A DNA stretch of 56,714 nt from Candidatus Nomurabacteria bacterium (GCA_020851595.1 JADZCK010000019.1:1-56714), one strand, 5' to 3'; counted from the stretch's first letter, positions 7,191-49,074 are shown. The notes: generated by a model not told the origin, from the letters alone. Numbers and translations are program-made.

Positions 7191-7224
7191 ACTTTGATTA
7201 TACCAATAATATATTGATTCTTCA

Positions 7225-7950
7225 ATGATAAAAATGTATTATGAAAATATGAAAATCCATAGATTTATCGGAGTTTTTGATTTATCAAAAAAAGAGATAG
7301 AAATCGTAAATCCTGAAAATATTAAGCAAATAAGGGATGTTTTGAGGCTTAAGATTGGTGAAAAAATAATTATTTCCGATGGTAAAGGCAAGGAGGCTGA
7401 GACTGCAATTAACGAGGTATCAAAAGATAAAATATTAGTATCTGTGTTGGAATTAACAAATAAAAAAGAACAGGAAAGAAAAATATCATTATATTTAGCA
7501 ATATTAAAAAAAGAAAATTTTGAATTGGCTGTGCAAAAAGCCGTAGAAGTTGGGGTTTCAAATATTGTTCCTATTGTCACAGAAAGAACGATCAAAACAG
7601 GGTTAAATATTGATCGCTTAGAAAAAATAATTCTTGAAGCCAGCGAACAATCCGGTAGAAGTACCGTACCTACAATATCCTCTATTTTTAATTTCAAAGA
7701 TGCGTTAGAAATTGGAAAAAGTTCAGAAGAAAAATTTATATTTCACACGAAAGAAGAAAATAGTGTTTACACACCAAACAAAACAGCAAAAAATGTTAGT
7801 ATATTTATTGGACCAGAGGGAGGATTTACAGAAAAAGAGATAGGTCTTGCTAAAGATTCTGGCTATTTTGTTGCATCCTTAGGCACACTCACACTACGAG
7901 GAGAAACTGCGGCAATAGTAGCCACATACCGCGCAGTGAATGCAATATAA
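7225..7950 (+). CDS. rsmE: 16S rRNA (uracil1498-N3)-methyltransferase RsmE
   Basis: Typical M-x-HRF N-terminus and C-terminal GPEGGF...LG..ILR.ETA motif. The true start may be the ATG at 7249 (MKIHRF). Confidence 0.85.
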   Translation: MIKMYYENMKIHRFIGVFDLSKKEIEIVNPENIKQIRDVLRLKIGEKIIISDGKGKEAETAINEVSKDKILVSVLELTNKKEQERKISLYLAILKKENFELAVQKAVEVGVSNIVPIVTERTIKTGLNIDRLEKIILEASEQSGRSTVPTISSIFNFKDALEIGKSSEEKFIFHTKEENSVYTPNKTAKNVSIFIGPEGGFTEKEIGLAKDSGYFVASLGTLTLRGETAAIVATYRAVNAI

Positions 7951-9915
7951 TTATTCTTCTAAGATTTTCTTTAATACTTCTTCAGGAACTTCCTTAACCT
8001 TTTGAGTAGAATCTATGTCGGGCTTTTTTTCTTCTGCCTCTTCTTTTGCGCTCTCTTCTTTTTCGGATTTCCCTGTTTTATCTACCTGAGTAGCAGAAAT
8101 TAAATCTTTCAATTTGTTCATTTCTTCTTTCGTAGCAGACCTATCTTTTAAGGTGTTTATATCTTTACTAATTTCTTTTGTTTTATTCTTGAGAGCATCT
8201 AGAGAAACTGGTTCCGGTGTGGGTATGGGAGTAGCAAGAGTTTTATTTAAAATATCTCTCAAAGCTGAGTTGCTTTTTTCTGGTGGTTTATTGTTGAGAA
8301 CTTTTTTAGCGATACTAGGTATCTTACTCTTGTCATTTGAACCATTTTGCGAATTTCCATTTTTGGGTTTAAATTCTATACCAAGATCAGAAAGTGGTTT
8401 ATAAAATTTTGACTCATCATATTTGATCTGGTCTTCTCCCCTCTTTTCCACCTTAACTTCTCCAGACTTTATTTTTGCTATACATTCTTTACAATACGCA
8501 GGCCTTCCAGGTTCTGGTTTAAAAGGAACAGTTTTCTCTTTTCCACACAAAGAACAAATTATAGGGAATTTACCAACACCCCCAGATGAATCACCATTAC
8601 CCAGTGACATTTCACTCCATTCATTTATTTCTCTTTCTACTATTTCTCTAGGCCTACAATATAAATCACGAGAAGTTCTAATCACTTCTTCTTCTATTTT
8701 TTTATTTCCAGATTTTACCATTTGAGGTAAAGTTTTTGCGGAGAAAGGTCTTGACGTCACACCATCAATCATTAACTTTAAATAAATTTTATAGTTTGGT
8801 AAGTTAACAATATCTTGGGGTGTAAATTCTGGATCAAACTCTTTTTCTAGAAATTTTGCGTCATCAGAACCAACTCTGAAAACAATCATCGTTCCAACGT
8901 TACCGAAAACAGCGTCACGAACAGCCGTACTTTTATCTACAACAAGTTGGGCGGTATACTGATGAGCCACAGTAAGATTTAATCTATATTTTCTAGCCTC
9001 AGACAAAATACCCGCAAAAGCATCAGTAACGAAATTTTGGAATTCGTCGACATATAGATAAAAATCTTTTCGGTGTTCCTCTGGAATACGCACACGTTCC
9101 ATGGCGGCAAGTTGAATCTTGGTAATAATCATTCCTCCGAGTAAGCCAGAATTATCTTCACCGATACGCCCCTTTGAAACATTTACAAGAAAAATCTTTC
9201 CATCGTTCATAATATCAAAAACATTTATAGTGCTTTTTGATTGACCGACGACATTTCTTATTATAGAAGTAGAAAGAAACTGCCCGACTTTATTTTGAAT
9301 CGGAGCGATAGCCTCATTTCTAAATTTTTCCTGCCAAGCTTCATATTCATGAACCCAAAAAGCTTTTATAACAGGATCTTTCAAATTTGCGATTATTTTT
9401 TGACGATAATCTTTATCCACGAGCATTCTAGGAATTCCAAGAAGTGTAGTGCCTGGAGTATCAAGTAAAGCCAAAATACAATTGTTTAAAATATATTCCA
9501 TTCTAGCGCTCCAAGCATTCGCCCAAATCTTCGTAAATATTCCCATCAATCCAGAAGCTACAAGATGTTTATATTGTGGATCTATAAGTTCAAGTACATT
9601 AAAACCAATATGGTAGTCAGTGTCAGCTGGATTAAAGTAAACTACATCTTTCATACGATGAGGAGGAATAGCCGAAAGCACTCCTTCCACGAGCTCTCCG
9701 TGAGGATCTACCACACACACACCTTCACCATTCTGAATATTCTGAATAATCATATTAAACATAAGCACAGATTTACCTGTACCAGATTTTCCGAGAATAT
9801 AAACATGTTGACGCCTGTCTTTGCGTTTTATTCCAAATAGCTGGTTTTTGTCACGAAATGTTGTAAGTCCAAGGTAAGTGATATCTTTATTTATAGGTAT
9901 TTCTGGCAAATCCAT
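7951..9915 (-). CDS. soluble TraD/VirD4-like P-loop ATPase, paralog 2, with C-terminal CxxC-x17-CxxC zinc ribbon and K/E-rich tail
   Basis: Walker A GKSGTGKS, Walker B FYLYVDEFQN. CSLCGKEKTVPFKPEPGRPAYCKEC is encoded at 8482-8556, followed by a low-complexity charged tail. Confidence 0.7.
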   Translation of the reverse strand: MDLPEIPINKDITYLGLTTFRDKNQLFGIKRKDRRQHVYILGKSGTGKSVLMFNMIIQNIQNGEGVCVVDPHGELVEGVLSAIPPHRMKDVVYFNPADTDYHIGFNVLELIDPQYKHLVASGLMGIFTKIWANAWSARMEYILNNCILALLDTPGTTLLGIPRMLVDKDYRQKIIANLKDPVIKAFWVHEYEAWQEKFRNEAIAPIQNKVGQFLSTSIIRNVVGQSKSTINVFDIMNDGKIFLVNVSKGRIGEDNSGLLGGMIITKIQLAAMERVRIPEEHRKDFYLYVDEFQNFVTDAFAGILSEARKYRLNLTVAHQYTAQLVVDKSTAVRDAVFGNVGTMIVFRVGSDDAKFLEKEFDPEFTPQDIVNLPNYKIYLKLMIDGVTSRPFSAKTLPQMVKSGNKKIEEEVIRTSRDLYCRPREIVEREINEWSEMSLGNGDSSGGVGKFPIICSLCGKEKTVPFKPEPGRPAYCKECIAKIKSGEVKVEKRGEDQIKYDESKFYKPLSDLGIEFKPKNGNSQNGSNDKSKIPSIAKKVLNNKPPEKSNSALRDILNKTLATPIPTPEPVSLDALKNKTKEISKDINTLKDRSATKEEMNKLKDLISATQVDKTGKSEKEESAKEEAEEKKPDIDSTQKVKEVPEEVLKKILEE

Positions 9916-39317: not shown

Positions 39318-39389
39318 GGCCTGGTAGCCAAGTGGTAAGGCAGAGATCTGCAAAATCTCTATGCGGCGGTTCAATTCCGCCCCAGGCCT
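39318..39389 (+). tRNA. tRNA-Cys: tRNA-Cys (GCA)
   Basis: Acceptor ggcctgg/ccaggcc, anticodon stem gagat/atctc with loop ctGCAaa, T arm ggcgg-ttcaatt-ccgcc. Confidence 0.88.
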
Positions 39390-39457
39390 CAAAAAATCAA
39401 CTTTGATTTTTTAAAAAATTAAATAATGTGCTAGAATGTTTTTGTTTTATGACGAGC

Positions 39458-39539
39458 GCCCGGATGGCGGAATTGGTATACGCGCACGACTTAAAATCGT
39501 GTCTCGCAAGGGATGTGGGTTCGACCCCCACTCCGGGCA
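39458..39539 (+). tRNA. tRNA-Leu: tRNA-Leu (TAA), type II
   Basis: Acceptor gcccgga/tccgggc, anticodon stem cacga/tcgtg with loop ctTAAaa, long variable arm, T arm gtggg-ttcgacc-cccac. Confidence 0.88.
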
Positions 39540-39559
39540 CACAACTTAATAAAAAATAT

Positions 39560-39582
39560 GCGCCCATAGCTGTTTTGGTAGA
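39560..39582 (+). repeat. degenerate ghost of the 5' part of tRNA-Lys
   Basis: gcgcccatagctgttttggtaga versus gcgtccatagctcagctggtaga (39635-39657), 18 of 23 identical. Confidence 0.6.
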
Positions 39583-39634
39583 TATACAGTTATAAAAAAT
39601 AATGTAAGATTATAGTTAAGTTTGGAAATTATAC

Positions 39635-39707
39635 GCGTCCATAGCTCAGCTGGTAGAGCAGATCCCTCTTAAGGATAAGGTCGGAGGTTCGATCCCTCCT
39701 GGACGCA
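39635..39707 (+). tRNA. tRNA-Lys: tRNA-Lys (CTT)
   Basis: Acceptor gcgtcca/tggacgc, D arm gctc-agctggta-gagc, anticodon loop ctCTTaa, T arm ggagg-ttcgatc-cctcc. Confidence 0.88.
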
Positions 39708-39742
39708 CAGCGATCAGGAAAAAACTGATCAAAATTATTTAC

Positions 39743-39824
39743 GGGCGAGTGGCGGAATTGGTATACGCGCTAGTCTTAGGAACTAGTGGAGCAATCCTTG
39801 AGGGTTCGAGTCCCTCCTCGCCCA
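39743..39824 (+). tRNA. tRNA-Leu: tRNA-Leu (TAG), type II
   Basis: Acceptor gggcgag/ctcgccc, anticodon stem ctagt/actag with loop ctTAGga, T arm gaggg-ttcgagt-ccctc. Confidence 0.88.
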
Positions 39825-39919
39825 CAAAAATGAGAAGCATTTTTATAGTGAATCGAAAGCCGGAGCACGACGGTGCGAGGCGGGATCGCGAACTTTGCTA
39901 ATAGGCAAAGATTTGTGAC

Positions 39920-39941: not shown

Positions 39942-39970
39942 TTGACTTTTATGTTGATAAGTGCTATACT
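39942..39970 (+). promoter_or_regulatory. sigma70-type promoter TTGACT-17-TATACT, 8 nt upstream of the ATG (near-leaderless)
   Basis: ttgact at 39942-39947, tatact at 39965-39970, ATG at 39979. Confidence 0.6.
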
Positions 39971-39978
39971 ATCAGCAT

Positions 39979-40791
39979 ATGAGTAAAACAAATAAAAAAT
40001 CAATAAATTACGGCTTGAAAATATTGACTATATTGGCTTTCGCCTTTATTTTTATACCCTTCGATAAAGCTGCTGCTACATTTGGTTATGGTACAAACGT
40101 ACCTTACGTTACCACTGATCATGCTGGCTATAATAGCCTCGGACAACCAAGAGAAGTAAACAACCCAGTCCCTTCTGTAAGCTCAATATACCCAAAATCA
40201 ACAAACAGATATTCAGGCGGAAAAACTGTTACTATTACTGGAGGTAATTTTGTTCCGACTTCTATCGCAAGATTAAATGGTTCAGATAGACCTACTACAT
40301 TTATAGATTATTCTCACCTATTAGTTCAATTATCTGCAAATGATATTTCTCGTAGTGAAGGATTCTTTATCACTGTTTACAATGGAGCACCTGGAGGTGG
40401 ATATTCCAACTCAGCTTTCTTCACTATAAACAACGTAGCTAATACACCGGCTAACACAAACAATAATGGGTATAATAATGGTTACGATAATAGCTATAAT
40501 TACAACAATACAAACAGTAACGGCTACAATAATAGCTCTTACACAAACAGCAATTACACCGACAATAATTACACTTCAAATACTTCAAGCCAAAATAGCA
40601 CAAATAGTGGTACTTCAAACAAATACAGCACCCTAACTTCTAATGCTATCTGGGGATCAAACACTTTCCTTCCTTCTGGATTGGTACAATGGATCTTGCT
40701 TGCGATAATAATTCTCGTAATTGTTATATTAACTAGAAAAATATTCGGCGGAGAAAAAGAATATCACGAATCTCCAATGAAACACGCTTAA
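39979..40791 (+). CDS. cell-surface protein: signal/anchor, IPT/TIG-like Ig domain, N/Y/S/T-rich stalk, C-terminal TM anchor
   Basis: PSVSSIYPKS...GGKTVTITGGNFVPTSIARLNG...LLVQL resembles IPT/TIG. This is followed by about 70 aa of N/Y/S/T low complexity and LVQWILLAIIILVIVILT. Start set at the ATG at 39979 (the track uses a GTG at 39961). Confidence 0.55.
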   Translation: MSKTNKKSINYGLKILTILAFAFIFIPFDKAAATFGYGTNVPYVTTDHAGYNSLGQPREVNNPVPSVSSIYPKSTNRYSGGKTVTITGGNFVPTSIARLNGSDRPTTFIDYSHLLVQLSANDISRSEGFFITVYNGAPGGGYSNSAFFTINNVANTPANTNNNGYNNGYDNSYNYNNTNSNGYNNSSYTNSNYTDNNYTSNTSSQNSTNSGTSNKYSTLTSNAIWGSNTFLPSGLVQWILLAIIILVIVILTRKIFGGEKEYHESPMKHA

Positions 40792-40911: not shown

Positions 40912-40967
40912 GATGGTTTGCTCATTAAGTAGCTGATTTTTATCGGCTTTTCAATGAGCAAACCATC
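40912..40967 (+). promoter_or_regulatory. 15-bp perfect inverted repeat (stem-loop) in the cassette leader
   Basis: gatggtttgctcatt (40912-40926) pairs with aatgagcaaaccatc (40953-40967), with a 26-nt loop. Confidence 0.6.
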
Positions 40968-41047
40968 ATTAAAGTTTTAAGTCAACTTTCTTTAAGCTCG
41001 CGCTTCGGCGCTTAACAGCGCCATTGGCGCAAAAAAAAGGAGACGAA

Positions 41048-41941
41048 ATGAACATCGACTTGACAGTAATCGAAAAAAAGGAAGAGGACTCCTCGACCAC
41101 CATCACCGCTACCGCGGTGGTGACGCCCGACCCGCCTCCGCCTACCCCAAAAGGGCAGGCTCGGAGAGTCACCCCGTTGACCGTGAAGTTCACCATCAAC
41201 GGAGCTCCAAAAGGAGTCTCCCCAGTCGACGCAAACGGTCACGCCAGTATCGAGCTGAAAAAGCTCGAAGCCGGCAAGACCTACACGATCACCGCCGAGG
41301 TTCTCGGAGCATCCGTCCCAACCTCGGCGACAGAGGCGATAACCATCGCCGCCCCGCCCACGAAAACGAAGGTCCCAACCGGGCCCTTCGGATGGGCAAT
41401 GATGGTGCTGTTCTGGGTCATTGTCTGGGTCGTTGGACCCGGATGGCTCACGATGTTATACCTAGGAATAACGATTGGAATACTCTTCCTCATCGCGAAA
41501 CTCCGGGGTACGACATTGGGCTCGGTTGTTGGCAACAACAACTGGGTGTTCTTCTCGGTGCTGGCGATGGCGGCCATCTCGGCTGTCATCGGACACTTCA
41601 ACCCGCTTCCCGCTCAGGGAGCAGTGAGTTGGCTGAAAAGTCTTTTCACAAACGCTCCGAGCGGGATCCATGGACACATTTTTTGGAGATTCTTCAACAA
41701 TGTGTTCTTCGGAAAGACGTTTACCGGTGGGTGGAGCCATGCGGCTCTGCTCTACCTCGTGTCTGTAATTCCAGCGTTCTTCATTTCGTTCTCGGACGAG
41801 ATCGGAGATCTCTGGAAGAACTTCAAGGGGAAACATCAAGGCAAGGCAACGAGTTTCCTGACCTTGATCCCGGAGTTCGGTCGCTTCCTGTTGAAAGACG
41901 GGGTGGCTGAGATCTTCTGGGCGTTCCTAAAGAGAAAGTAA
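41048..41941 (+). CDS. hypothetical membrane protein: N-terminal Ig-like beta domain with Pro-rich segments plus about 5 TM helices
   Basis: AAGGAG at 41037-41042 lies 5 nt from the ATG at 41048 (the track starts at a TTG at 41024). Strong G/C third-position bias in this frame. TVKFTINGAPKG...GKTYTITAEV is followed by hydrophobic helices. Confidence 0.7.
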   Translation: MNIDLTVIEKKEEDSSTTITATAVVTPDPPPPTPKGQARRVTPLTVKFTINGAPKGVSPVDANGHASIELKKLEAGKTYTITAEVLGASVPTSATEAITIAAPPTKTKVPTGPFGWAMMVLFWVIVWVVGPGWLTMLYLGITIGILFLIAKLRGTTLGSVVGNNNWVFFSVLAMAAISAVIGHFNPLPAQGAVSWLKSLFTNAPSGIHGHIFWRFFNNVFFGKTFTGGWSHAALLYLVSVIPAFFISFSDEIGDLWKNFKGKHQGKATSFLTLIPEFGRFLLKDGVAEIFWAFLKRK

Positions 41942-41951
41942 GGAGAAAGCC

Positions 41952-42365
41952 ATGAGTAAGAGCAAGATCTTTTCCGTTATCATGGTTCTCCTCCTCGTCA
42001 TCTTAACCGCTGGGTGCGGCAAGTCTCCCAAAAAGGAACTTGCCGAACTTAAGGCAAAGACCTCGGCCACAACCTCGGATGAAGCTAAGGTTGCTCTCGA
42101 AGAGGTTCGCGAGTTCGTCGAACGGCTCAAGCAAGAAGAAGAGCCCCCAGACGAACTCAAAGGAGCCATCGTACTTCAGAGCCAGCGAGCTTTGGAGTAC
42201 GGAACGCTTCTCGTCAAGGAGAAGGTTTCGGGTGGGGTCGAAACCCTACTTGAGATCTTCAAGTCAAACGGGGTTGACCCATCAACGATAACCGACCCCG
42301 AGACAAAAGCGTACCTAAAAGCCTATGATCCCTACTCAGGGGACAGGCTTGAAGGTTACAAATAA
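41952..42365 (+). CDS. hypothetical lipoprotein (137 aa, helical, acidic)
   Basis: AAGGAG at 41940-41945. Signal peptide with lipobox LTAG/C (VLLLVILTAGCGKSP). Confidence 0.7.
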   Translation: MSKSKIFSVIMVLLLVILTAGCGKSPKKELAELKAKTSATTSDEAKVALEEVREFVERLKQEEEPPDELKGAIVLQSQRALEYGTLLVKEKVSGGVETLLEIFKSNGVDPSTITDPETKAYLKAYDPYSGDRLEGYK

Positions 42366-42428
42366 AACATAAGAGCGAGAGGGCTTTCGCAAGAAATCTT
42401 CTCGCTTGATTCAAAAAAGGAAACTACG

Positions 42429-43370
42429 ATGGAACTCGGAATTTGGGTGCTCGTCACCCTCGTGCTCTGGTTCACCCTCGACATCCCGCTGATCTATTGT
42501 TTGGCCATCGTGGCCATAGCGTGGATCATGATTAAGGGAGGTGGAATTGGCAACGCTTTCAACGGCATCAAAAACGCCGTCGGAGGAGTCGTTGATTTCA
42601 CCAAGCGCCTGATCATTTTCGTCCCGGTTTTCTTGGGGATGACTTTGATCATGACGTTGGCAAGTGGCATCTCCCCGCATAACGCAACCAGAAGGTTGCA
42701 AGTGTTGGGACCGATGCCATGGAACTGGCACTCCAATCCCGACATGCCCCTCGTCCTCTTCGTGTGCTTGATGTTCCTGGTTACCATGGCTTCCGTGAAG
42801 GTTGCATATGGTGACTGGAAGCTCGCACTCAAGATTTTCGGGGGGTCGGCTAGCATCTTGATCGTTATCCTATACCTTCCGAAGACTCGGGAAGCCATGG
42901 GGCCCACGACGCTCGCCGGACCAGACGGAGCTGACGAAAAGATCGCCAAGGAGGGCGTCGTCGCTCCGGTGGTTAAAGGAGCGGGAACGCTCCTCGCCGG
43001 ACAGCCCGACGACCTCAAAAAAAGGGGGTTGGTCGGTTCGTCCTATCATAGGGCGAAGGAGTACCTCTTCGGTGAAGAGCCTCCTCCCACCCCACCGCCG
43101 CCCGCCGCCCCACCGGTGGCGCCACCAACCCAAAAACAGGTGAGGAGGTTGTACCTCTTCACAGACAACGACACCATCGCGGTAAAAATCCACCTTGGAG
43201 AAGTGGACTTTTACCCCAAGGGTGGAGAGGTGTTGATCACCCCTCCGTCCCCCCTCAAGTCCTGGCTGGACAAGCCAGGGACGATAAATCCCCGGAGGGA
43301 ATTCCCTCCAGGAGTTTACACCGTAAAGAGGGTGGACCCCGGTGCCACTGGCATCGAGATCTGGAACTAG
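42429..43370 (+). CDS. hypothetical membrane protein: about 4-5 N-terminal TM helices, poly-Pro linker, 80-aa C-terminal beta domain
   Basis: AAGGA at 42417-42421. Linker EEPPPTPPPPAAPPVAPPTQ. GC3-rich frame. Confidence 0.7.
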   Translation: MELGIWVLVTLVLWFTLDIPLIYCLAIVAIAWIMIKGGGIGNAFNGIKNAVGGVVDFTKRLIIFVPVFLGMTLIMTLASGISPHNATRRLQVLGPMPWNWHSNPDMPLVLFVCLMFLVTMASVKVAYGDWKLALKIFGGSASILIVILYLPKTREAMGPTTLAGPDGADEKIAKEGVVAPVVKGAGTLLAGQPDDLKKRGLVGSSYHRAKEYLFGEEPPPTPPPPAAPPVAPPTQKQVRRLYLFTDNDTIAVKIHLGEVDFYPKGGEVLITPPSPLKSWLDKPGTINPRREFPPGVYTVKRVDPGATGIEIWN

Positions 43371-43432
43371 AGCAACTTGTTCTTCGGCCAGAAAGGAGTA
43401 TCGCGCCTGGCCAGCGCAAACATCAAACGCAA

Positions 43433-43464
43433 AGGGCGACTCGTTCACACGAGCCGCCCTTTTT
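43433..43464. terminator. GC-rich rho-independent terminator shared by the convergent cassette and pilin operon
   Basis: agggcgactcg (43433-43443) pairs with cgagccgccct (43450-43460), followed by tttt. Confidence 0.75.
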
Positions 43465-43483: not shown

Positions 43484-43807
43484 CTACTTTGATAAATCTA
43501 CGCTACCATCTTGCAAGTTTATTTTAGACTTAGGAATATTTAGAGTACTTAGAACCATATTGAGTATAGTGAATACTCCCATCATTATCGTAAGCCCTAC
43601 AATACCCCAAATCATATGATCTCTACCGGTTATCTTGCTTTCTTCATTGTCTGCATTCGCAAAGAATTGATAGACCCCATAAAGGAAATAAACCAAAGCG
43701 AGAGCGAATAGCAATTCTATAAGTGGATTGATGATCTTATCACCAACATTAAAAATAAACGTATCCAGATCTGCTGCGTAGGCTATTTTTGTAGAAAAAA
43801 AATCCAT
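43484..43807 (-). CDS. TrbC/VirB2-like T4SS-type pilin paralog P1 (signal peptide apparently truncated)
   Basis: Two TM helices flank the NADNEESKITGRDHMIWGIVGL loop motif shared with P2-P4. Only 11 aa precede the AYA/A site. Confidence 0.55.
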   Translation of the reverse strand: MDFFSTKIAYAADLDTFIFNVGDKIINPLIELLFALALVYFLYGVYQFFANADNEESKITGRDHMIWGIVGLTIMMGVFTILNMVLSTLNIPKSKINLQDGSVDLSK

Positions 43808-43809
43808 TT

Positions 43810-44202
43810 TTATTGCGGAGGAATTTCAACAGTAGGGAAATCTGTCGTGGTAGCAGGAGTGTCTAAATTAAATGTTTTCAATACAACATTTACAAGCCCC
43901 CACATACCGATAATAACAGCTAAACCCACAATACCGTAGATCATTCTATCTCGGCCTTTTGACTTTGCTTCCTCGTCATCAGCGATTACAAAAGATACTA
44001 CCCCCCAAACAAAGAAAATAACTCCTAGCAATATTAATACAGGGATAACACTTTGTAGAAACTTACCAACAACACACAAGAAACCAAAAATCGTACCATT
44101 TGTACCAGTACTACATTCAGAAGTTACAGTAGACTGTGCTAATGCTACAAATGGAGCAAAGGTTAATACAGCACCTGACAAAACCATTAAATTCTTTTTC
44201 AT
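43810..44202 (-). CDS. TrbC/VirB2-like T4SS-type pilin paralog P2
   Basis: Signal peptide, Cys-x12-Cys loop, TM1, loop DDEEAKSKGRDRMIYGIVGL, TM2 (GMWGLVN). Confidence 0.6.
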   Translation of the reverse strand: MKKNLMVLSGAVLTFAPFVALAQSTVTSECSTGTNGTIFGFLCVVGKFLQSVIPVLILLGVIFFVWGVVSFVIADDEEAKSKGRDRMIYGIVGLAVIIGMWGLVNVVLKTFNLDTPATTTDFPTVEIPPQ

Positions 44203-44269
44203 TTTTTATTTAAACTAAAAAACGTTAATAATAAATCGCGACCTAATAATAAACTAATAATGTAACTTA

Positions 44270-44298
44270 ATTATACCTCCTAGCAAATTTCTAAGCAA
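44270..44298 (-). promoter_or_regulatory. internal promoter TTGCTT-17-TATAAT upstream of P2-P1
   Basis: The minus strand reads ttgctt agaaatttgctaggagg tataat (plus-strand aagcaa 44293-44298, attata 44270-44275). Confidence 0.5.
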
Positions 44299-44310
44299 AT
44301 CAAAATTTAT

Positions 44311-45000
44311 CTATGGGGCTTTCTTCGGAACCGTCGGGAGAAAATCAGTCGGTACTCCAAAGGTAGCACCAAGAATATTAACCAATCCCCACACAGAAAG
44401 CATTACAGCCAAAGACACAATACCCCAAATCATAAACTGTTTACCTTGTGTTCTTTTGGATTCATCATCAGCATTGATTATAAAGAAATTTACAGCTCCC
44501 CAGATAAACATAAGAGTAGCTAAAGCGAAAATCAAAGGAATAATAGTACCGTTGATGGTGCAAGTAATATAAGCTATGTATTTTTGGAAGGTTGACTCTT
44601 CCGCTCCTGGTGTAGGAGCTACACAAGAACCTTCGGTTACTATTGTGTTTAATTTAGGAGCTGTTAAATCACTAGAGTTAAAAAAGGTGCTTACAACTAT
44701 ATTCACAAGCCCCCACATACCGATAATAATAGCTAGGCCCACAATGCCGTATATTATCCTATCTCTTCCTTTATCCTTTGCTTCTTCGCTGTCATATATG
44801 ACGTACTGCACTACCCCCCAAACAAAATACAGGACCCCTAGAGAAATAAGTAACGGCAGAATAGAACTAAAGACATTATTTATGTTACAAACAAAACCAC
44901 TGAGTCCCTCATCTGGACAAGCAGCTGTAGCGGCAGAGGCTGTAAACGGCGAGAATCCTACTAAAAATAATATTGGAATAAACTTAAATATTTTTTTCAT
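44311..45000 (-). CDS. tandem double-domain T4SS-type pilin paralog P3
   Basis: There are two complete Cys-loop/TM/charged-loop/TM modules (DSEEAKDKGRDRIIYGIVGL and NADDESKRTQGKQFMIWGIVSL). Start set at the ATG at 45000 (MKKIFKF), 1 nt after the P4 stop. Confidence 0.6.
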   Translation of the reverse strand: MKKIFKFIPILFLVGFSPFTASAATAACPDEGLSGFVCNINNVFSSILPLLISLGVLYFVWGVVQYVIYDSEEAKDKGRDRIIYGIVGLAIIIGMWGLVNIVVSTFFNSSDLTAPKLNTIVTEGSCVAPTPGAEESTFQKYIAYITCTINGTIIPLIFALATLMFIWGAVNFFIINADDESKRTQGKQFMIWGIVSLAVMLSVWGLVNILGATFGVPTDFLPTVPKKAP

Positions 45001-45001
45001 A

Positions 45002-45406
45002 TTATGAAGGTAATAAATTTTTAATATCTGTACTAGATGGAGCTTTGTTTTGATTATCGTCATTCAAACCAAAAGTATTTTGTACTATGCGCACAAGTCC
45101 CCACATAGCTACGATAACAGTAAGCCCGATAATACCATATATTATACTATCCCTACCTTTTACTTTTGCCTCCTCGGTATCAGCGATAACATACTGAACT
45201 ACTCCCCAAACAAAGTAAATGACACCAAGTAGAATAATTATAGGAAGAACGTAATTCATAAGCTGTCCTATTCGGCAAAGAATACTTTGCAAACCGGAAA
45301 CAGCGCATGGATCTATAATAACCACAGCATAAGCCCTCGTACCAAATAAAAAAGAGAATAAAACTAATAAACTAATTTTATAAAACAATTTGAATATATT
45401 TTTCAT
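45002..45406 (-). CDS. TrbC/VirB2-like T4SS-type pilin paralog P4
   Basis: Signal peptide, CAVSGLQSILC loop, DTEEAKVKGRDSIIYGIIGL, AMWGLV. Confidence 0.6.
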   Translation of the reverse strand: MKNIFKLFYKISLLVLFSFLFGTRAYAVVIIDPCAVSGLQSILCRIGQLMNYVLPIIILLGVIYFVWGVVQYVIADTEEAKVKGRDSIIYGIIGLTVIVAMWGLVRIVQNTFGLNDDNQNKAPSSTDIKNLLPS

Positions 45407-45429
45407 ATTTTTTAAAAAAATAATTTTAA

Positions 45430-45810
45430 TTAACCAAGACTAGTAATAGTAGCCGATATCATCTCGGCTATAGCCCACGATCCTAATAAAATTGCAGAAC
45501 CTATCAAGGTATAAAGAAGTGCGTCTTTTGCTTTCCCTATCTCTTCAGGATTGCCTCTAGCAAAAACAAAAAGAAAACCGCAGTAAATAACAGCCAGAAC
45601 GATGAGAGGTATGCCGATTTTTATAACCCCCTCAAGCATGTTTTGTATGAACTCAGGAAGCGTGGTCTCTGTACCTAGTGGGTTACAAATTTTCCCTTTA
45701 CATGGATCTACAACCGTCCCTCCAGTGTCTGCAAGTAAAACGAAAACAGGAAGAAAAAAATAAGATAAACTTATAAATAATACGTACCATTTTTCTTTCA
45801 TTAATTTCAT
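45430..45810 (-). CDS. divergent T4SS-type pilin paralog P5
   Basis: Same topology: signal peptide, CKGKIC, TM1, charged loop GNPEEIGKAKD, TM2. Start set at the ATG at 45810 (MKLMKEKW). Confidence 0.5.
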   Translation of the reverse strand: MKLMKEKWYVLFISLSYFFLPVFVLLADTGGTVVDPCKGKICNPLGTETTLPEFIQNMLEGVIKIGIPLIVLAVIYCGFLFVFARGNPEEIGKAKDALLYTLIGSAILLGSWAIAEMISATITSLG

Positions 45811-45829
45811 AGAATGATTATAACTTATA

Positions 45830-46252
45830 TTACAAACCAATCCAAGCTCCGTCATACCCTAAAATTGATAATAATGTTTTAACGATGAGATAACCCGCAA
45901 CAGCAATAATCAGACCAATGACAACACTACTAAAAGTATCCTTTGCTTTTGTTTTAGCCTCCGCCCCAGGAGCAGTCACTATTAAAAACCCAGTATATGT
46001 AAACAAGATAGCGGCAATTGGAATCACCATCTTAAAAAGAAGAAATTTTATTACAGTATCTACTAAAGTCATAAGAGCGGTAAAATCACACTCCCCAGCA
46101 GGAGTGACAGTACCATCAGCAGCCGTTTTCATATTATTACAAGGAATCAGGCTGGTCGCGCCATGCGCAGCATAAAAAGAAGGAATAAACAACATAAAAA
46201 AAATAAAAACAGCGGGCAAGCTTTTGATTATAAAATTTTTTATTTTTTGCAT
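45830..46252 (-). CDS. divergent T4SS-type pilin paralog P6
   Basis: Signal peptide, Cys...Cys segment, TM1, loop APGAEAKTKAKD, TM2. Confidence 0.5.
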   Translation of the reverse strand: MQKIKNFIIKSLPAVFIFFMLFIPSFYAAHGATSLIPCNNMKTAADGTVTPAGECDFTALMTLVDTVIKFLLFKMVIPIAAILFTYTGFLIVTAPGAEAKTKAKDTFSSVVIGLIIAVAGYLIVKTLLSILGYDGAWIGL

Positions 46253-46267
46253 TTTAATTTTGAAATC

Positions 46268-47557
46268 TTATCTTAATAAAAGACCTATTTTTATGCTTGC
46301 GTCGTCTATCGCATCTTTGACTGTCAGATTACCAGAAAGCACCCCGTTTACCATCCCAGCGAAAATACTGCCAGTGTCTTTGGGAGATGGATCTACCCAA
46401 CTTTTAGCGTAGAGAGCAGAATTATAGAAAATAGGAGAATACGCGTCGTTAGGCTTTGAAGCAAGCAAGTCTCTACGAGCTGGAACTAAATTTAATGCAG
46501 CAGCAAACTGCGCAGCAAAACTACCACTTGTCATCAAGTTTGCAGCGACAAAAGCTGTATTTAGATTTTTTGACAAAGACGATATCGCAATTCCTGTCAC
46601 ACGAGAAGTGGTAGCTTTGAAATTAGAATTTTTAATCTGAGGAATACCAGTTACAGAAAAATTCAGATTTGGATTTTTATTCATTAAAACTTTTAATTCA
46701 CTGGAAAAACCAAAATGGAAAGCTAGGTTGTTTGACGAAAAAGCATCTATAGAGTTTGGAAAAGATTTATTCCAAGAATATACAGCACTCTGTGGGTCTG
46801 TAAAATCCGTGTAGAACTGCAAAATAGATGGAAGATTGTAGTTACCCAAAGGTACATTTAAGGTTGAAGAAAATCTGCCTTCTGTTTCTTTTACAATAGG
46901 ATTCCCTGCTTGCAAAAATAGAGTAGCAAGTATGTCTTTTGCATTGGTAACATTTGAAAATTGGCCAAAAGCAACCGCTGGTTTCAATATCTTATTCGCT
47001 TCATCTTTTTTGACAAGTATCGGCATCATATCTATCAAATCATTCCAAGTAGCTGGAGGATAAACCACACCATTTGCATCTAAAATACTTCTGTTGTAAT
47101 ACATCATCAATGGATCTATTGTGATAGGAAAAGCCATTAATCCTTTATTTTTCAAAAAAACCTCACCTGCCCCAGCAAAAACACTCTTAAATGTAGCTAG
47201 AGGGTAACTAGTGTAGGGTATGGTAAAAATTTTATTGGCATAATGATAGGCCAAATTGTCAGGCAAGAAAAAAATATCGGGCCCAGTATTTGTTGCTAAG
47301 GCTTCTAACAAATCCCTATCGAAAGTTTCTGGAGCCTTTTCTACATAATTAACAACAAAAGTAGGATTTGCATCATTAAAATCTTTTATTATAGGAGATA
47401 CGACGGGAGTCGGCATAGTACCCCAAAGTACCACTGTACCAGTACTTCCAGTAGACCCGCTATTACCTATAGGGATAGCGCCAGAAAAAACCAAAAGACC
47501 CAAAATACCAGCAGCTATAAACACAATGAGAATGATAAGTTGAAAATTGCCTTTCAT
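46268..47557 (-). CDS. membrane-anchored extracellular solute-binding protein (ABC SBP family 1-like), orphan
   Basis: N-terminal TM, then an SBP-like pattern (VVLWGTMP..., GPDIFFLP, W..D). No permease or ATPase genes are adjacent. Confidence 0.55.
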   Translation of the reverse strand: MKGNFQLIILIVFIAAGILGLLVFSGAIPIGNSGSTGSTGTVVLWGTMPTPVVSPIIKDFNDANPTFVVNYVEKAPETFDRDLLEALATNTGPDIFFLPDNLAYHYANKIFTIPYTSYPLATFKSVFAGAGEVFLKNKGLMAFPITIDPLMMYYNRSILDANGVVYPPATWNDLIDMMPILVKKDEANKILKPAVAFGQFSNVTNAKDILATLFLQAGNPIVKETEGRFSSTLNVPLGNYNLPSILQFYTDFTDPQSAVYSWNKSFPNSIDAFSSNNLAFHFGFSSELKVLMNKNPNLNFSVTGIPQIKNSNFKATTSRVTGIAISSLSKNLNTAFVAANLMTSGSFAAQFAAALNLVPARRDLLASKPNDAYSPIFYNSALYAKSWVDPSPKDTGSIFAGMVNGVLSGNLTVKDAIDDASIKIGLLLR

Positions 47558-48150: not shown

Positions 48151-49074
48151 CTATTGGATATCAAACGACTGAGTATCACCTGAAAAAGAAGTAACTCCAC
48201 ATTTTTTTGCTTCAATTTGCCATGTTGCCCATGCAGATTTTACGGTATTGAGACGTGCGTCACGAGCTGTTTTTTGTGTTGTTTTAAAAGTATTCCAAGC
48301 AGCTTTTATGGCTGCATCTCTAAGTTCAGGCCTCCCCCACCATGCCCCAGCGAGAGCATTTTTTCTTGCTGAAAAAGCAGTGGTCATTGTTGATGTAAAT
48401 GTATTTAAAGCATTAGCTACTGTAGTTTCTCTTATTCCTAGAGCTATATCTACACAACCAGAGTTAACATTTACTGTAATTGGTAAATCAACCTTCACTT
48501 TAGCCACTTTTATTGTGACTTTTTTATCACTTGATTTAAGAATTGTCTTGTCTTTTATGCTTGTTGTAATACCTTTAGCTGCAAAATTAGCAAACGCAAC
48601 TTCTTCAATAATTGGAGCTCCTTTACCATCTGTCGTGTTAGATTTTGTTAATCTAACAACTAAACCAGTTAAGTCTAAAGAATCACCAAAATAATAAACT
48701 GTTTTTGGAGACATCAACACTGTTATACTAGTTATTGTAGGAATTGGATTAACTGTGATTAATTGAGTAGCTGTTTTATCACCAGCTTTTATTATTAATT
48801 TTAAAGCACCAACTTTTCCAAGAATAGAACCATTCTTCATGTTTATAGTAATTCCCTTGGATGCAAAATCCGTAAATGTAATATATTCTGCTACTGCATT
48901 AGATTTACTTATTTTAACGACTAAACCAGTTAAATTTAAAGATTCGCCTGCCGTATAAATCGTTTTTGTTGGTGGTGTCGTAATCACTAAATCAGTCACT
49001 ATGGTATCAGCATAAACAAACGAACCAAACATGAACAGAACTGCAAATAAACTCAATAGTAATATTTTTTTCAT
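48151..49074 (-). CDS. secreted protein with two Big_3-like Ig repeats and a helical Cys-bounded C-terminal domain
   Basis: Signal peptide, then repeats PPTKTIYTAGESLNLTGLVVKISKSN and SPKTVYYFGDSLDLTGLVVRLTKSN. Confidence 0.55.
   Translation of the reverse strand: MKKILLLSLFAVLFMFGSFVYADTIVTDLVITTPPTKTIYTAGESLNLTGLVVKISKSNAVAEYITFTDFASKGITINMKNGSILGKVGALKLIIKAGDKTATQLITVNPIPTITSITVLMSPKTVYYFGDSLDLTGLVVRLTKSNTTDGKGAPIIEEVAFANFAAKGITTSIKDKTILKSSDKKVTIKVAKVKVDLPITVNVNSGCVDIALGIRETTVANALNTFTSTMTTAFSARKNALAGAWWGRPELRDAAIKAAWNTFKTTQKTARDARLNTVKSAWATWQIEAKKCGVTSFSGDTQSFDIQ

What the first reader, a model, noticed from the sequence alone, without database searches (positions are those of the whole stretch)
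43484..46252. Six tandem TrbC/VirB2-like pilin paralogs, one a fused double pilin and one without a signal peptide, with no secretion machinery nearby
The six consecutive minus-strand genes share one architecture: signal peptide, a Cys...Cys loop, TM1, a short charged loop (consensus D.EEAK.KGRD..IYGIVGL in P1-P4) and TM2 (GMWGLVN). This is the topology of T4SS pilins (TrbC/VirB2, T4SS_pilin-type). P3 (44311-45000) contains two complete modules in one polypeptide. P1 (43484-43807) starts only 11 aa before an AYA/A cleavage-like site, so it lacks a hydrophobic signal core. P5 and P6 are much more divergent. P4, P3, P2 and P1 are nearly abutting (P4/P3 gap 1 nt, P2/P1 gap 2 nt). An internal TTGCTT-17-TATAAT promoter lies at 44270-44298. 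No VirB4, VirB6, VirB8-10 or relaxase genes are in the window. The only T4SS-like ATPases (5820-9915) are 34 kb away in a chaperone locus. Such a large paralog set suggests a heteropolymeric or antigenically variable surface filament used for something other than classical conjugation.
Basis: partly seen in the sequence, partly recalled or inferred. Interest (0 to 1): 0.65.

Follow-up and report, generated by a model that had tools for sequence, protein, structure and literature searches.

The report
Conserved pilin operon with a fused double pilin
The six genes are a real, expressed operon of VirB2-like pilin proteins in an ultrasmall wastewater bacterium (Paceibacteria); such pilin arrays are already known in this phylum, but the fixed gene order in about 75 of 80 related species, the fused double pilin and the leaderless pilin are not described in the papers I could search.

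Summary
Six consecutive minus-strand genes (43484-46252) all match Pfam T4SS_pilin (PF18895). One (P3) has two complete modules and one (P1) has no signal peptide. Pfam and NCBIfam find no VirB4, VirB6, VirB8 or relaxase in the 56.7 kb window.

The interpretation needs correcting. This is not a fast-varying paralog set. The order P6-P5-(P4)-P3[A+B fused]-P2[A]-P1[B-like] recurs in about 75 of 80 loci from different Paceibacteria/Nomurabacteria species, always at gyrA-methyltransferase-MalE-like protein-[pilins]. Orthologs between species (47-60% identity) are more alike than most paralogs within the genome (22-45%).

P1 is a conserved leaderless pilin, not a truncation. The P3-P2 spacer carries a promoter and leader motif conserved across species. 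Metatranscriptome contigs show the array is expressed, and P2-P1 is detected most often.

In a relative, VirB3-TrsD-VirB4 lie about 500 genes away (PMC12102498, Table S3). VirB2-like arrays of 2-11 genes in Patescibacteria are already published. The most likely function is a heteromeric T4SS-dependent pilus or conduit for host contact, but this is inferred. The fused pilin, the split A/B pair and the regulatory leader are the new details.

The parts
45830..46252 (-). P6: pilin-like protein, 140 aa. It has a signal peptide, a conserved Cys...Cys pair, two hydrophobic helices and a conserved C-terminus LSILGYxGxWIGF.
   Evidence: ORF. PF18895 20.8 bits, below the cut-off. Orthologs in 74-76 of 80 loci, median 46.7% identity. 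hhalign to the P5 class E 5e-19. RNA contig 46073-46281 spans the junction with the upstream gene.
45430..45810 (-). P5: pilin-like protein, 126 aa from the MKLMKEKW start. It is the member closest to classical TrbC/VirB2.
   Evidence: PF18895 38.3 bits and PF04956 TrbC 32.2 bits, both above their cut-offs. Orthologs in 76 loci all start at the equivalent Met. RNA contig 45218-45473 spans the P5/P4 junction.
45002..45406 (-). P4: extra A-type pilin, 134 aa. It is the optional member, present as a separate gene in about a fifth of the related loci and fused to P3 in three of them.
   Evidence: PF18895 35.9 bits. Architectures 6-5-4-3ab-2-1 versus 6-5-3ab-2-1. Triple AAB proteins in L073, L074 and L076. 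RNA contig 44940-45090 spans the P4/P3 junction.
44311..45000 (-). P3: fused double pilin, 229 aa. Order: signal peptide, A module (about 44626-45000), a roughly 30-aa linker holding the first Cys of the B module's Cys pair, then the B module (about 44311-44625).
   Evidence: Two PF18895 stretches, 67.4 bits. 946 homologous clusters, most of the 120 listed 190-280 aa. 221 GTDB species representatives encode a relative. Alignment A2 has 45 invariant columns. The AF2 model shows four long helices, H33-68, H72-106, H138-175 and H180-214, mean pLDDT 66.9.
44203..44310 (-). P3-P2 spacer. It holds a conserved promoter (-35 TTGCTT 44298-44293; -10 TATAAT 44275-44270) and a conserved 5' leader motif, ATTATTAG...TTATTAGGTCGC (44263-44238).
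   Evidence: Sequence. The spacer has a median length of 106 nt in 73 loci. AGGTCG is in 53 of 73 (41 times background), ATTATTAG in 50 of 73 (125 times) and GTATAAT in 34 of 73 (33 times). The motif is unique in the window. No Rfam match. RNA contig 44083-44233 reaches into the leader.
43810..44202 (-). P2: A-type pilin, 130 aa. It is the unfused counterpart of the P3 A module and has an unusually conserved signal peptide (MKKKLxVLSGxVLGLAPVVALAQ).
   Evidence: PF18895 32.4 bits. hhalign of the P2 class against the P3a class scores 334, E 4e-58. Two Cys in 68 of 77 orthologs. Exact-match RNA contigs in several metatranscriptomes.
43484..43807 (-). P1: leaderless pilin, 107 aa, with no signal peptide and no cysteine. 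Its closest relative is the P3 B module, by a small margin.
   Evidence: PF18895 23.4 bits. 77 positional orthologs share MDLFSTKIAYA..LDSFI.NV..IINPLI, and a minority start directly at ..D.FI.NV. 433 homologous clusters of about 104-124 aa, nearly all with PF18895. No Cys in 76 of 77. Best hhalign partner is P3b (146, against 133 for P3a and 121 for P2). The AF2 model is a helical hairpin, H3-50 and H55-88, pLDDT 80.7. RNA contigs 43698-44066, 43729-44066 and 43782-43932 span the P2/P1 junction.
43434..43459 (.). GC-rich inverted repeat (GGGCGGCTCG-6-CGAGTCGCCC) between the convergent P1 and 42429-43370 genes. It is a possible bidirectional terminator.
   Evidence: Read directly from the sequence. 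The terminator scan did not list it, so this is only a visual call.
46268..47557 (-). Membrane-anchored MalE-like substrate-binding protein, 429 aa, 15 nt upstream of P6. It is probably co-transcribed and a conserved neighbour. No functional link is shown.
   Evidence: PDB phmmer hit to trehalose/maltose-binding protein 1eu8, E 2e-7 over residues 56-421. NCBIfam MalE 33 bits, far below the cut-off. An ortholog lies upstream of the array on the same strand in 77 of 80 loci. RNA contig 46073-46281 spans its junction with P6.

Best explanation
The locus is an old, vertically inherited chromosomal operon of a wastewater Paceibacteria (Nomurabacteria-type) bacterium. It encodes six VirB2/TrbC-superfamily (PF18895) pilin-like proteins, seven helical-hairpin modules in all. 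There are three subtypes: TrbC-like P6 and P5; A-type P4, P3a and P2; and B-type P3b and P1.

Five of the proteins have Sec signal peptides. Each module is a two-helix membrane hairpin with both ends outside the cell. P1 inserts without a cleavable leader.

My inference is that a VirB4/VirB3/TrsD-type T4SS encoded elsewhere on the chromosome extracts these subunits from the membrane. It would assemble them into one heteromeric surface pilus or conduit, used for contact with or exchange with a host cell rather than for conjugation.

The array has two transcription units. The upstream unit is MalE-like protein-P6-P5-P4-P3. The P2-P1 pair has its own conserved promoter and leader and is the part most readily detected in metatranscriptomes. 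P2 (A) plus P1 (B) are therefore the likely bulk subunits. P3, a covalent A-B fusion of the same two module types, and P5/P6 would be lower-abundance specialised subunits, for example for nucleation, the base or the tip.

Shown: family membership, the architecture, its conservation and synteny, expression, and the remote machinery in a relative. Inferred: filament formation, heteromeric composition, the major/minor roles and the biological purpose.
For: - **Family.** PF18895 is the top hit for all six genes. P5 also passes TrbC PF04956. NCBIfam gives the Mbov_0395 pilin-like conjugal transfer protein family.
- **Fold.** AF2 models are helical hairpins: P1 pLDDT 80.7 and P3 with two hairpins.
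- **Organism.** Relatives are named Paceibacterota or Nomurabacteria. The source runs are wastewater and activated sludge.
- **Conserved operon.** About 75 of 80 species-level loci have the order 6-5-(4)-3ab-2-1. The synteny S1-MBL-gyrA-MTase-SBP-[pilins] is also conserved.
- **Distinct subunit classes.** Window modules score best against their own positional class: P1 160 bits, P3b 166, P2 179, P3a 160. P5 scores 160 against the class of the gene just before the fused pilin, which in most loci is the P5 ortholog. P4, the optional A-type copy, scores best against the P3a class. Median ortholog identity is 47-60%; paralog identity is 22-45% outside the A-type trio.
- **Fusion logic.** A and B are fused in P3 in 221 species. 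P4 is additionally fused in three loci. P2 matches P3a (E 4e-58) and P1's best match is P3b. This argues that A and B modules are physical neighbours.
- **Promoter and leader.** They are conserved in the P3-P2 spacer.
- **Expression.** RNA contigs span the SBP/P6, P5/P4, P4/P3 and P2/P1 junctions. The 827-nt P2-P1 query found 9 RNA runs (word share up to 0.40). The 1942-nt P3-P6 query found 3 RNA runs (share 0.11 or less).
- **Machinery elsewhere.** In Nomurabacteria GW2011_GWB1_43_19, the organism named in the title of locus L023, Table S3 of PMC12102498 lists VirB2, PrgF and VirB2 hits at genes 126, 128 and 129, 'not near virB4'. It lists VirB3-TrsD-VirB4 at genes 634-636 with another PF18895 pilin at 638.
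- **Function in the phylum.** A six-gene pilin cluster inside the T4SS locus is essential for epibiotic growth of Southlakia epibionticum (PMC10633639; PMC12857230).
Against: - No pilus made of PF18895 proteins has been seen in any organism, so the family name is a prediction.
- Structure and sequence searches against solved pilins gave nothing significant. Foldseek returned no match with E at or below 0.001. The Aeropyrum pernix conjugation pilus 8dfu ranked third for P1 at E 1.4. PDB sequence and profile searches found nothing relevant.
- The machinery of this particular genome is not in the window, so its presence is assumed from relatives.
- In relatives the virB4 locus has its own adjacent pilin gene. 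That gene could be the real pilus subunit, leaving this array for something else.
- The RNA evidence comes from assembled contigs at depth 2-5 in metatranscriptomes. These can contain DNA and are not quantitative.
- P1's closer relationship to the B module than to the A module is small (146 against 133).
Confidence: 0.55

Rival explanations
1. The array is an interchangeable-subunit set for antigenic or host-range variation. Each paralog would be an alternative major pilin, as proposed for the trwL copies of the Bartonella Trw system and the VirB2 paralogs of Anaplasma, and as suggested for Patescibacteria arrays in PMC12102498.
For: The genes are tandem paralogs of one family, and paralog identities are low (22-45% for most pairs). 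The number of A-type copies varies between species: P4 is present, absent or fused, and a few loci have extra B genes. The published survey offers this idea for arrays in the phylum.
Against: Position-by-position orthology holds across about 75 species. Orthologs are more conserved than paralogs. Conservation is similar to that of the neighbouring methyltransferase (65%) and MalE-like protein (62%). The co-occurring strain in run X1 is identical over 43925-47438, and the strain in run X3 differs by about 1.4%. Gene fusions would lock two 'alternatives' into one polypeptide.
Confidence: 0.1
2. The proteins are small membrane components that do not form an extended pilus. They could be a short pseudopilus or channel lining inside the T4SS envelope complex (PrgF-like accessory proteins of monoderm systems). 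Alternatively they could be a T4SS-independent oligomeric membrane structure that works with the conserved upstream MalE-like binding protein in uptake.
For: One gene in what is probably the orthologous array (mapping not verified) is picked up by the monoderm FATA_PrgF profile rather than a VirB2 profile. NCBIfam's best family is a Mycoplasma ICE 'pilin-like' membrane protein. Monoderm T4SSs generally lack pili (PMC12102498). The array is never next to virB4 in this clade but is next to, and co-transcribed with, a MalE-like protein in 77 of 80 loci. There is no significant structural match to solved pilins.
Against: P5 passes the TrbC/VirB2 Pfam cut-off. Signal peptide plus hairpin with both ends outside is the pilin topology. 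The high relative detection of P2-P1 RNA fits a bulk structural subunit. Reviews treat the Patescibacteria pilins as potential pilus formers. No ABC permease or ATPase accompanies the binding protein.
Confidence: 0.27
3. P2 and P1 are the two halves of a decaying or mis-assembled second copy of the double pilin. A stop codon and frameshift next to the T8 run at the start of P1 would have split it, which would explain why P1 has no signal peptide.
For: P2 resembles the P3 A module and P1 is closest to the B module. P2 and P1 are 2 nt apart in different frames, and a T8 run follows the P1 start codon.
Against: Separate P2 and P1 genes occur in 77 of 80 loci, with a median gap of 11 nt. P1 has its own conserved N-terminus, no Cys in 76 of 77 orthologs, and 58% median identity across species. 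RNA contigs with no mismatches reproduce the junction.
Confidence: 0.02

Closest known systems
VirB2-like pilin arrays of Patescibacteria (Quinonero-Coronel et al. 2025, PMC12102498; the essential pilin cluster of Southlakia epibionticum ML1, Wang et al. 2023, PMC10633639; the array in Nanosynbacter lyticus TM7x)
   Same: Same Pfam family (PF18895/PF04956). Tandem arrays of 2-11 divergent paralogs. Chromosomal, with no relaxase. Often distant from virB4. Monoderm host-dependent bacteria. What is probably the orthologous array of Nomurabacteria GW2011_GWB1_43_19 is partly listed in that paper's Table S3 (3 genes detected; I could not verify the gene-by-gene mapping).
   Different: [quoted passage not shown] This one is a Paceibacteria operon fixed at gyrA-MTase-SBP and always more than 10 kb from any VirB4. 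It has a covalently fused A-B pilin, a matching split A/B pair, a leaderless member and a conserved internal promoter and leader. None of these is mentioned in the papers I could search.
Classical T4SS pilins: VirB2 (Agrobacterium T-pilus), TrbC (RP4), TraA (F), and the archaeal Ced/conjugation pilins
   Same: Signal peptide followed by two hydrophobic helices joined by a short charged loop. P5 passes the TrbC/VirB2 Pfam model. The predicted fold is a helical hairpin. The Aeropyrum pernix conjugation pilin 8dfu is the third-ranked Foldseek match for P1, but the match is not significant.
   Different: Classical systems have one major pilin gene inside the T4SS operon and form a homopolymer with phospholipid. 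Here there are six genes and seven modules, one of them a tandem fusion, in a monoderm and away from the machinery. Cyclisation, lipid binding and filament formation are all untested.
Amplified VirB2-type pilin genes of Bartonella (trwL copies of the Trw system) and Anaplasma phagocytophilum (VirB2 paralogs)
   Same: Tandem amplification of T4SS pilin genes within one genome, with divergent copies. The system is used for host interaction rather than conjugation.
   Different: Those arrays are thought to give variant surfaces for immune evasion or host-range breadth. Here every copy has a conserved ortholog and position across species, which points to differentiated, co-assembled subunits.
Major and minor pilin sets of type IV pili and type II secretion pseudopili (an analogy in mechanism only)
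   Same: Several related small subunits are encoded together. One or two are abundant 'major' subunits and several are low-abundance ones that prime or cap the fibre. That is the role split proposed here for P2/P1 against P3/P5/P6.
   Different: There is no homology. No class III (prepilin peptidase) leader or N-terminal FTLIE-type helix is present, and the proteins here are two-helix hairpins.

Membership tests
Pfam T4SS_pilin (PF18895) | Score at or above the curated gathering threshold (26.6 bits) against the family HMM | tested here: met
   P2 32.4, P3 67.4 (two stretches), P4 35.9 and P5 38.3 bits. P1 (23.4) and P6 (20.8) are below the threshold, but PF18895 is still their top hit. Almost all listed P1 relatives carry PF18895. 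The P6 class links to the P5 class by hhalign, E 5e-19.
TrbC/VirB2 pilin (PF04956) | Score at or above the gathering threshold (27.9 bits) | tested here: inconclusive
   Only P5 passes (32.2 bits). P6 scores 14.4 bits, and P1-P4 have no hit at E up to 1.
TrbC/VirB2-type T4SS pilin (functional class) | Cleavable signal peptide followed by two hydrophobic helices joined by a short charged loop (helical hairpin) | tested here: met
   N-terminal K-rich, hydrophobic, AxA-type leaders are seen by eye in P2-P6; no signal-peptide predictor was available. The hairpins are supported by alignment A1 and by the AF2 models. P1 is the exception because it has no leader.
TrbC/VirB2-type T4SS pilin (functional class) | Structural similarity to solved T4SS pilins | tested here: inconclusive
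   Foldseek against the PDB gave no match with E at or below 0.001 for P3 or P1. The conjugation pilus 8dfu ranked third for P1 at E 1.4, TM 0.44-0.53. Two-helix hairpins are too simple for a significant match.
TrbC/VirB2-type T4SS pilin (functional class) | Encoded with, or at least in the same genome as, a VirB4-type ATPase and membrane translocon | tested here: inconclusive
   None is in the window, and none is within 10 kb of the array in any of the 80 related loci. The organism named in the title of L023 has VirB3-TrsD-VirB4 at genes 634-636 (PMC12102498 Table S3). The rest of this genome is not available.
TrbC/VirB2-type T4SS pilin (functional class) | Polymerises into an extracellular pilus; processing or cyclisation of the termini | not testable with these tools
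   This needs microscopy, proteomics or multimer modelling.
Variable pilin arrays (Bartonella Trw / Anaplasma type) | Copies diverge rapidly and differ between strains or species without stable one-to-one orthology | tested here: not met
   Stable positional orthologs occur in about 75 of 80 species. Ortholog identity is higher than paralog identity. The strain in run X1 is identical over most of the array.
Conjugative (DNA-transfer) T4SS locus | Relaxase and coupling protein associated with the mating-pair-formation genes | tested here: not met
   No relaxase is in the window. Two VirD4/TraD-like ATPases lie 34 kb away between dnaJ and dnaK, with scores far below the curated cut-offs. The published survey found relaxases in only 103 of 3,035 Patescibacteria genomes.
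Type IV pilus / T2SS pseudopilins | Class III leader with a prepilin peptidase site and a conserved N-terminal hydrophobic helix | tested here: not met
   No pilin or pseudopilin Pfam or NCBIfam family scored. The only such hit was ComGF at E 0.39 for P1. The leaders are Sec-type by inspection.

The most novel reading that the evidence does not exclude
The repeating unit of this pilus would be a heterodimer of an A-type and a B-type VirB2-like hairpin, P2 plus the leaderless P1. The same pair exists as one covalently fused polypeptide (P3, and as a triple fusion in some species) that nucleates or caps the fibre. This would be the first heteropolymeric T4SS pilus with tandem-fused pilins. It would be built by a monoderm, machinery-remote T4SS and tuned by a dedicated conserved promoter and leader element upstream of P2.
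Probability: 0.25. Interest if true: 0.7.

Novelty: new variant of a known kind. Interest (0 to 1): 0.42.

Why it matters
T4SS pilins in monoderm, host-dependent Patescibacteria are a recent and unexplained discovery. The pilin cluster is essential in the one species tested, and nobody knows what the structure is or does.

This locus shows that one large Paceibacteria clade keeps a fixed set of differentiated pilins. Three details stand out: a natural A-B fusion, a leaderless subunit, and a separately promoted and more readily detected P2-P1 pair.

That gives concrete hypotheses that can be modelled and tested: which subunits are major, which modules are neighbours, and where the transcription start lies. 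The fused pilin is also a ready-made construct for structure prediction or expression. None of this changes the general picture already in the literature, so the value is incremental.

Tried and rejected
1. **Foreign island next to P1.** I first took the high-GC block 40950-43450 for a window-specific insertion, because the three window proteins found 2, 0 and 7 homologs by direct BLAST. I rejected this as a full explanation. In 52 of 62 related loci, a 0.9-5.7 kb segment lies at the same position, in most of them with GC above the locus mean, and usually encodes an SPFH/Band_7 protein plus a small membrane protein. The C-terminus of 42429-43370 is related to that small protein. The block is a fast-evolving, strain-variable segment, not clearly foreign DNA.
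2. **P2/P1 as a recent fission or pseudogene of a P3 duplicate.** Rejected, because the split pair is conserved in 77 of 80 loci.
3. **Structure searches.** Foldseek of the P3 and P1 models against the PDB gave nothing significant. PDB sequence and profile searches with P5 and with the P5 and P6 ortholog profiles gave no relevant hit.
4. **RNA families.** An Rfam scan of the array and spacer gave only chance-level matches.
5. **Promoter and terminator scan.** Counts were not above shuffled expectation, and the scan lists neither the spacer promoter nor the hairpin after P1.
6. **Exact look-up of P2.** No contig on record encodes it.
7. **Structure prediction for P5.** I modelled P1 instead.
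8. **Mapping to Table S3.** I tried to match the KKT accession numbers in Table S3 to the genes of L023. The cluster look-up showed only four accessions per protein and none was a KKT number. The correspondence between genes 126-129 and this array is therefore probable but not verified.

Full report
**1. What is there**

The stretch 43484-46252 carries six consecutive minus-strand ORFs. Pfam T4SS_pilin (PF18895) is the best hit for all six. P2, P3, P4 and P5 score above the curated cut-off. P3 matches in two separate stretches. P5 also passes the classical TrbC/VirB2 model PF04956. NCBIfam gives the Mycoplasma ICE 'pilin-like conjugal transfer protein' family as the best hit for five of the six (P6 is the exception).

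P1 and P6 fall just below the Pfam cut-off. Almost all listed relatives of P1 carry a precomputed PF18895 hit, and the P6 ortholog profile aligns with the P5 profile at E 5e-19. One correction: P5 should start at 45810 (MKLMKEKW), as its orthologs do, not at the overlapping ATG at 45855.

**2. Organism and surroundings**

The window is a low-GC (about 0.35) housekeeping stretch. It holds ribosomal proteins, rpoA, alaS, cysS, dnaK/dnaJ/grpE, clpB, infB, gyrA and a tRNA cluster. Homologs are named Candidatus Paceibacterota or Nomurabacteria. The sequence is found in wastewater and activated-sludge metagenomes.

Pfam and NCBIfam detect no VirB4, VirB6, VirB8-10 or relaxase in the window. The two ATPases at 5820-7190 and 7951-9915, between dnaJ and dnaK, are VirD4/TraD-like at scores far below the curated cut-offs. 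This fits the published finding that Patescibacteria carry about two VirD4-like genes per genome, almost never next to virB4 (5,713 in 2,918 genomes, 148 near virB4; PMC12102498).

**3. The array is a conserved operon, not a fluid paralog set**

I scanned one genome per GTDB species with an alignment of double pilins. It found relatives in 221 species, and 80 loci were kept. I classified the ORFs in those loci with module HMMs and with the window proteins.

- About 75 of 80 loci have the same order: P6, P5, an optional extra A-type gene (the window's P4), the fused A+B protein (P3), an A-type gene (P2), and a short gene of about 105 aa (P1).
- The flanks are also conserved: S1 protein, metallo-beta-lactamase-fold protein, gyrA, methyltransferase and a MalE-like binding protein upstream; a 'choice-of-anchor Z' surface protein, tRNAs, infB and clpB downstream.
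- Window modules score best against the HMM of their own positional class: P1 160 bits, P3b 166, P2 179 and P3a 160. P5 scores 160 against the class of the gene just before the fused pilin, which in most loci is the P5 ortholog. P4 scores best against the P3a class.
- Median identity to orthologs is 47-60%. Identity between paralogs in the window is 22-45%, except within the A-type trio P2/P3a/P4 (51-63%).
- For comparison, the neighbouring methyltransferase and binding protein are 65% and 62% identical to their orthologs.
- A co-occurring strain (run X1) is identical over 43925-47438. Another (run X3) differs by about 1.4%.

These results argue against antigenic variation. They argue for differentiated subunits that are all needed.

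**4. The fused pilin and the split pair**

P3 (229 aa) consists of a signal peptide, an A module, a linker of about 30 residues holding the first Cys of the B module's Cys pair, and a B module. The architecture is widespread: 946 clusters, with most of the 120 listed 190-280 aa. It is strongly conserved, with 45 invariant columns among 22 diverse sequences. Three loci carry a triple A-A-B fusion in place of P4 plus P3.

Profile-profile comparison shows that P2 is the unfused twin of the A module (score 334, E 4e-58). P1's best partner is the B module (146, against 133 for P3a and 121 for P2, so the margin is small). P5 and P6 form a third subgroup. The operon therefore encodes the A-B pair twice, once as a single polypeptide (P3) and once as two adjacent genes (P2, P1).

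By the usual fusion argument, A and B modules are likely to be physical neighbours in whatever they build. The AF2 model of P3 has four long helices forming two hairpins (pLDDT 66.9).

**5. P1 is a genuine leaderless member**

Seventy-seven positional orthologs share the N-terminus MDLFSTKIAYA(S/A)..LDSFI.NV..IINPLI. A minority begin directly at the ..D.FI.NV part. This suggests that the first 11 or so residues are a dispensable pre-sequence. P1 orthologs lack cysteine in 76 of 77 cases, whereas P2, P3b and P6 usually have exactly two.

The AF2 model of P1 is a clean helical hairpin (H3-50, H55-88, pLDDT 80.7). Separate P2 and P1 genes with a median gap of 11 nt are the rule. The frameshift or pseudogene reading is therefore rejected. 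How a hairpin with both ends outside inserts without a leader is not shown. YidC- or Sec-mediated insertion of a short N-tail is my inference.

**6. Regulation and expression**

The P3-P2 spacer has a median length of 106 nt in 73 loci and is a phylogenetic footprint:

- GTATAAT is present in 34 of 73 spacers (33 times background).
- ATTATTAG is present in 50 of 73 (125 times background).
- AGGTCG is present in 53 of 73 (41 times background).
- The elements are arranged as -10 box, ATTATTAG, TTATTAtAGGTCGC, TTTATTATTAG, then about 36 nt to the start codon.

The motif occurs once in the window and has no Rfam match. The generic promoter scan did not flag the site, so the support comes from conservation rather than consensus strength.

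Exact-match metatranscriptome contigs span four junctions:

| Junction | Contig |
|---|---|
| SBP/P6 | 46073-46281 |
| P5/P4 | 45218-45473 |
| P4/P3 | 44940-45090 |
| P2/P1 | 43698-44066 and others |

The array is therefore transcribed in situ, and the upstream unit is probably co-transcribed with the MalE-like gene. Searching RNA runs with the 827-nt P2-P1 unit found nine runs (word share up to 0.40). The 1942-nt P3-P6 unit found three (share 0.11 or less). This suggests that P2-P1 is the more abundant transcript. The data are assembled contigs at low depth and may include DNA, so this is suggestive only.

**7. Where the machinery is**

The window cannot answer this for its own genome. For Nomurabacteria GW2011_GWB1_43_19, the organism named in the title of locus L023, Table S3 of PMC12102498 lists the following:

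- VirB2, PrgF and VirB2 hits at genes 126, 128 and 129, marked 'not near virB4'. This is probably the same array, but I could not verify the accession mapping.
- T4CP-like genes at 528, 532 and 576.
- VirB3-TrsD-VirB4 at 634-636, with another PF18895 pilin at 638.

The same pattern recurs in two other Nomurabacteria assemblies in that table. A remote T4SS is therefore the expectation.

**8. Comparison with what is known**

Tandem VirB2-like arrays of 2-11 genes were reported in 383 Patescibacteria assemblies. The pilin genes were near virB4 in 1135 of 1948 assemblies (PMC12102498). A pilin cluster is essential in Southlakia epibionticum (PMC10633639). A 2025 review highlights Patescibacteria as the only monoderms with VirB2-like pilins (PMC12857230). 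The core of the finding is therefore already known.

The papers I could search do not mention the following:

- the fused double or triple pilin;
- the A/B split pair that mirrors it;
- the leaderless P1 class;
- the fixed Paceibacteria operon at gyrA;
- the conserved spacer promoter and leader.

Direct tests against solved pilins were inconclusive. Foldseek gave no significant match, with the Aeropyrum pernix conjugation pilus ranking third for P1 at E 1.4. PDB sequence and profile searches found nothing relevant.

**9. Verdict**

The family assignment is supported.

The most likely mechanism is as follows. The hairpin subunits are inserted into the membrane. A remote VirB4-type system extracts them and assembles them into one heteromeric pilus or conduit for host interaction. 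P2/P1 would be the bulk subunits and P3/P5/P6 the specialised ones. I put this at about 0.55. The main rival, at about 0.27, is a non-filamentous membrane or pseudopilus role, possibly linked to the co-transcribed binding protein.

Novelty is a new variant of a known kind, and interest is moderate.

Noticed in passing
window 40950-43450: This block has GC of 0.50-0.62 in a genome of 0.35. It holds three plus-strand ORFs: an Ig-like protein (41024-41941), a lipoprotein (41952-42365) and a membrane, Pro-rich protein (42429-43370). It is strain-variable: run X2 holds it, while runs X1 and X3 lack or replace most of it. In 52 of 62 related loci, a 0.9-5.7 kb segment lies at the same place, in most of them with GC above the locus mean, convergent to P1. 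It usually encodes an SPFH/Band_7 protein plus a membrane protein of about 150-200 aa, to which the C-terminus of 42429-43370 is related. Why GC is raised there, and whether these proteins work with the pilins, is unknown.
   Followed up: partly
window 44238-44275 (minus strand); the same place in about 50 related loci: A conserved 5' leader lies upstream of P2: GTATAATTA, then ATTATTAG, then TTATTAtAGGTCGC, then TTTATTATTAG. It is 33-125 times enriched over the locus background, occurs once in the window and has no Rfam match. It could be a regulator binding site or an RNA element that sets the level of the P2-P1 transcript.
   Followed up: partly
window 46268-47557 (minus strand): A membrane-anchored, distant MalE-like substrate-binding protein with no ABC permease or ATPase nearby. 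It lies upstream of the pilin array on the same strand in 77 of 80 related loci, and an RNA contig links it to P6.
   Followed up: partly
window 5820-7190 and 7951-9915 (minus strand): Two VirD4/TraD-like P-loop ATPases sit between dnaJ and dnaK, separated by an RNA methyltransferase on the other strand. The second one carries a CxxC-x17-CxxC treble-clef zinc finger. All scores are far below the curated cut-offs.
   Followed up: partly
window 48151-49074 (minus strand): A Big_3 (Ig-like) secreted protein lies between the methyltransferase and gyrA. It has no counterpart in any of the 80 related loci, so it appears to be an insertion specific to this lineage.
   Followed up: no
L073 9983-10897, L074 9860-10855, L076 9968-10879: Triple-module (A-A-B) pilins of 303-331 aa, in which the extra A-type gene appears fused to the double pilin. 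Four loci (L048, L051, L055, L058) instead carry an extra B-type gene right after the double pilin.
   Followed up: partly
P2 orthologs (77 loci); window 44134-44202: The signal peptide of P2 is unusually conserved across species (MKKKLxVLSGxVLGLAPVVALAQ). P3 ends with a conserved LPxV(T/K)PP-type tail (L221 and P222 invariant), and the P2 consensus ends with a similar LPTVP. These may be processing or recognition signals.
   Followed up: no
L001-L080, contig coordinates: In many long contigs the pilin array lies about 19-24 kb from a contig end, for example L001, L003, L005, L009, L012, L025 and L028. This suggests a recurrent assembly break, perhaps an rRNA operon or a variable region, at a fixed distance from the array.
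   Followed up: no
window 39318-39825 and 39961-40791: A cluster of four tRNA genes (Cys, Leu, Lys, Leu) is followed by a 'choice-of-anchor Z' repeat surface protein. That protein is conserved in 62 of 80 loci but is only about 43% identical to its orthologs.
   Followed up: no
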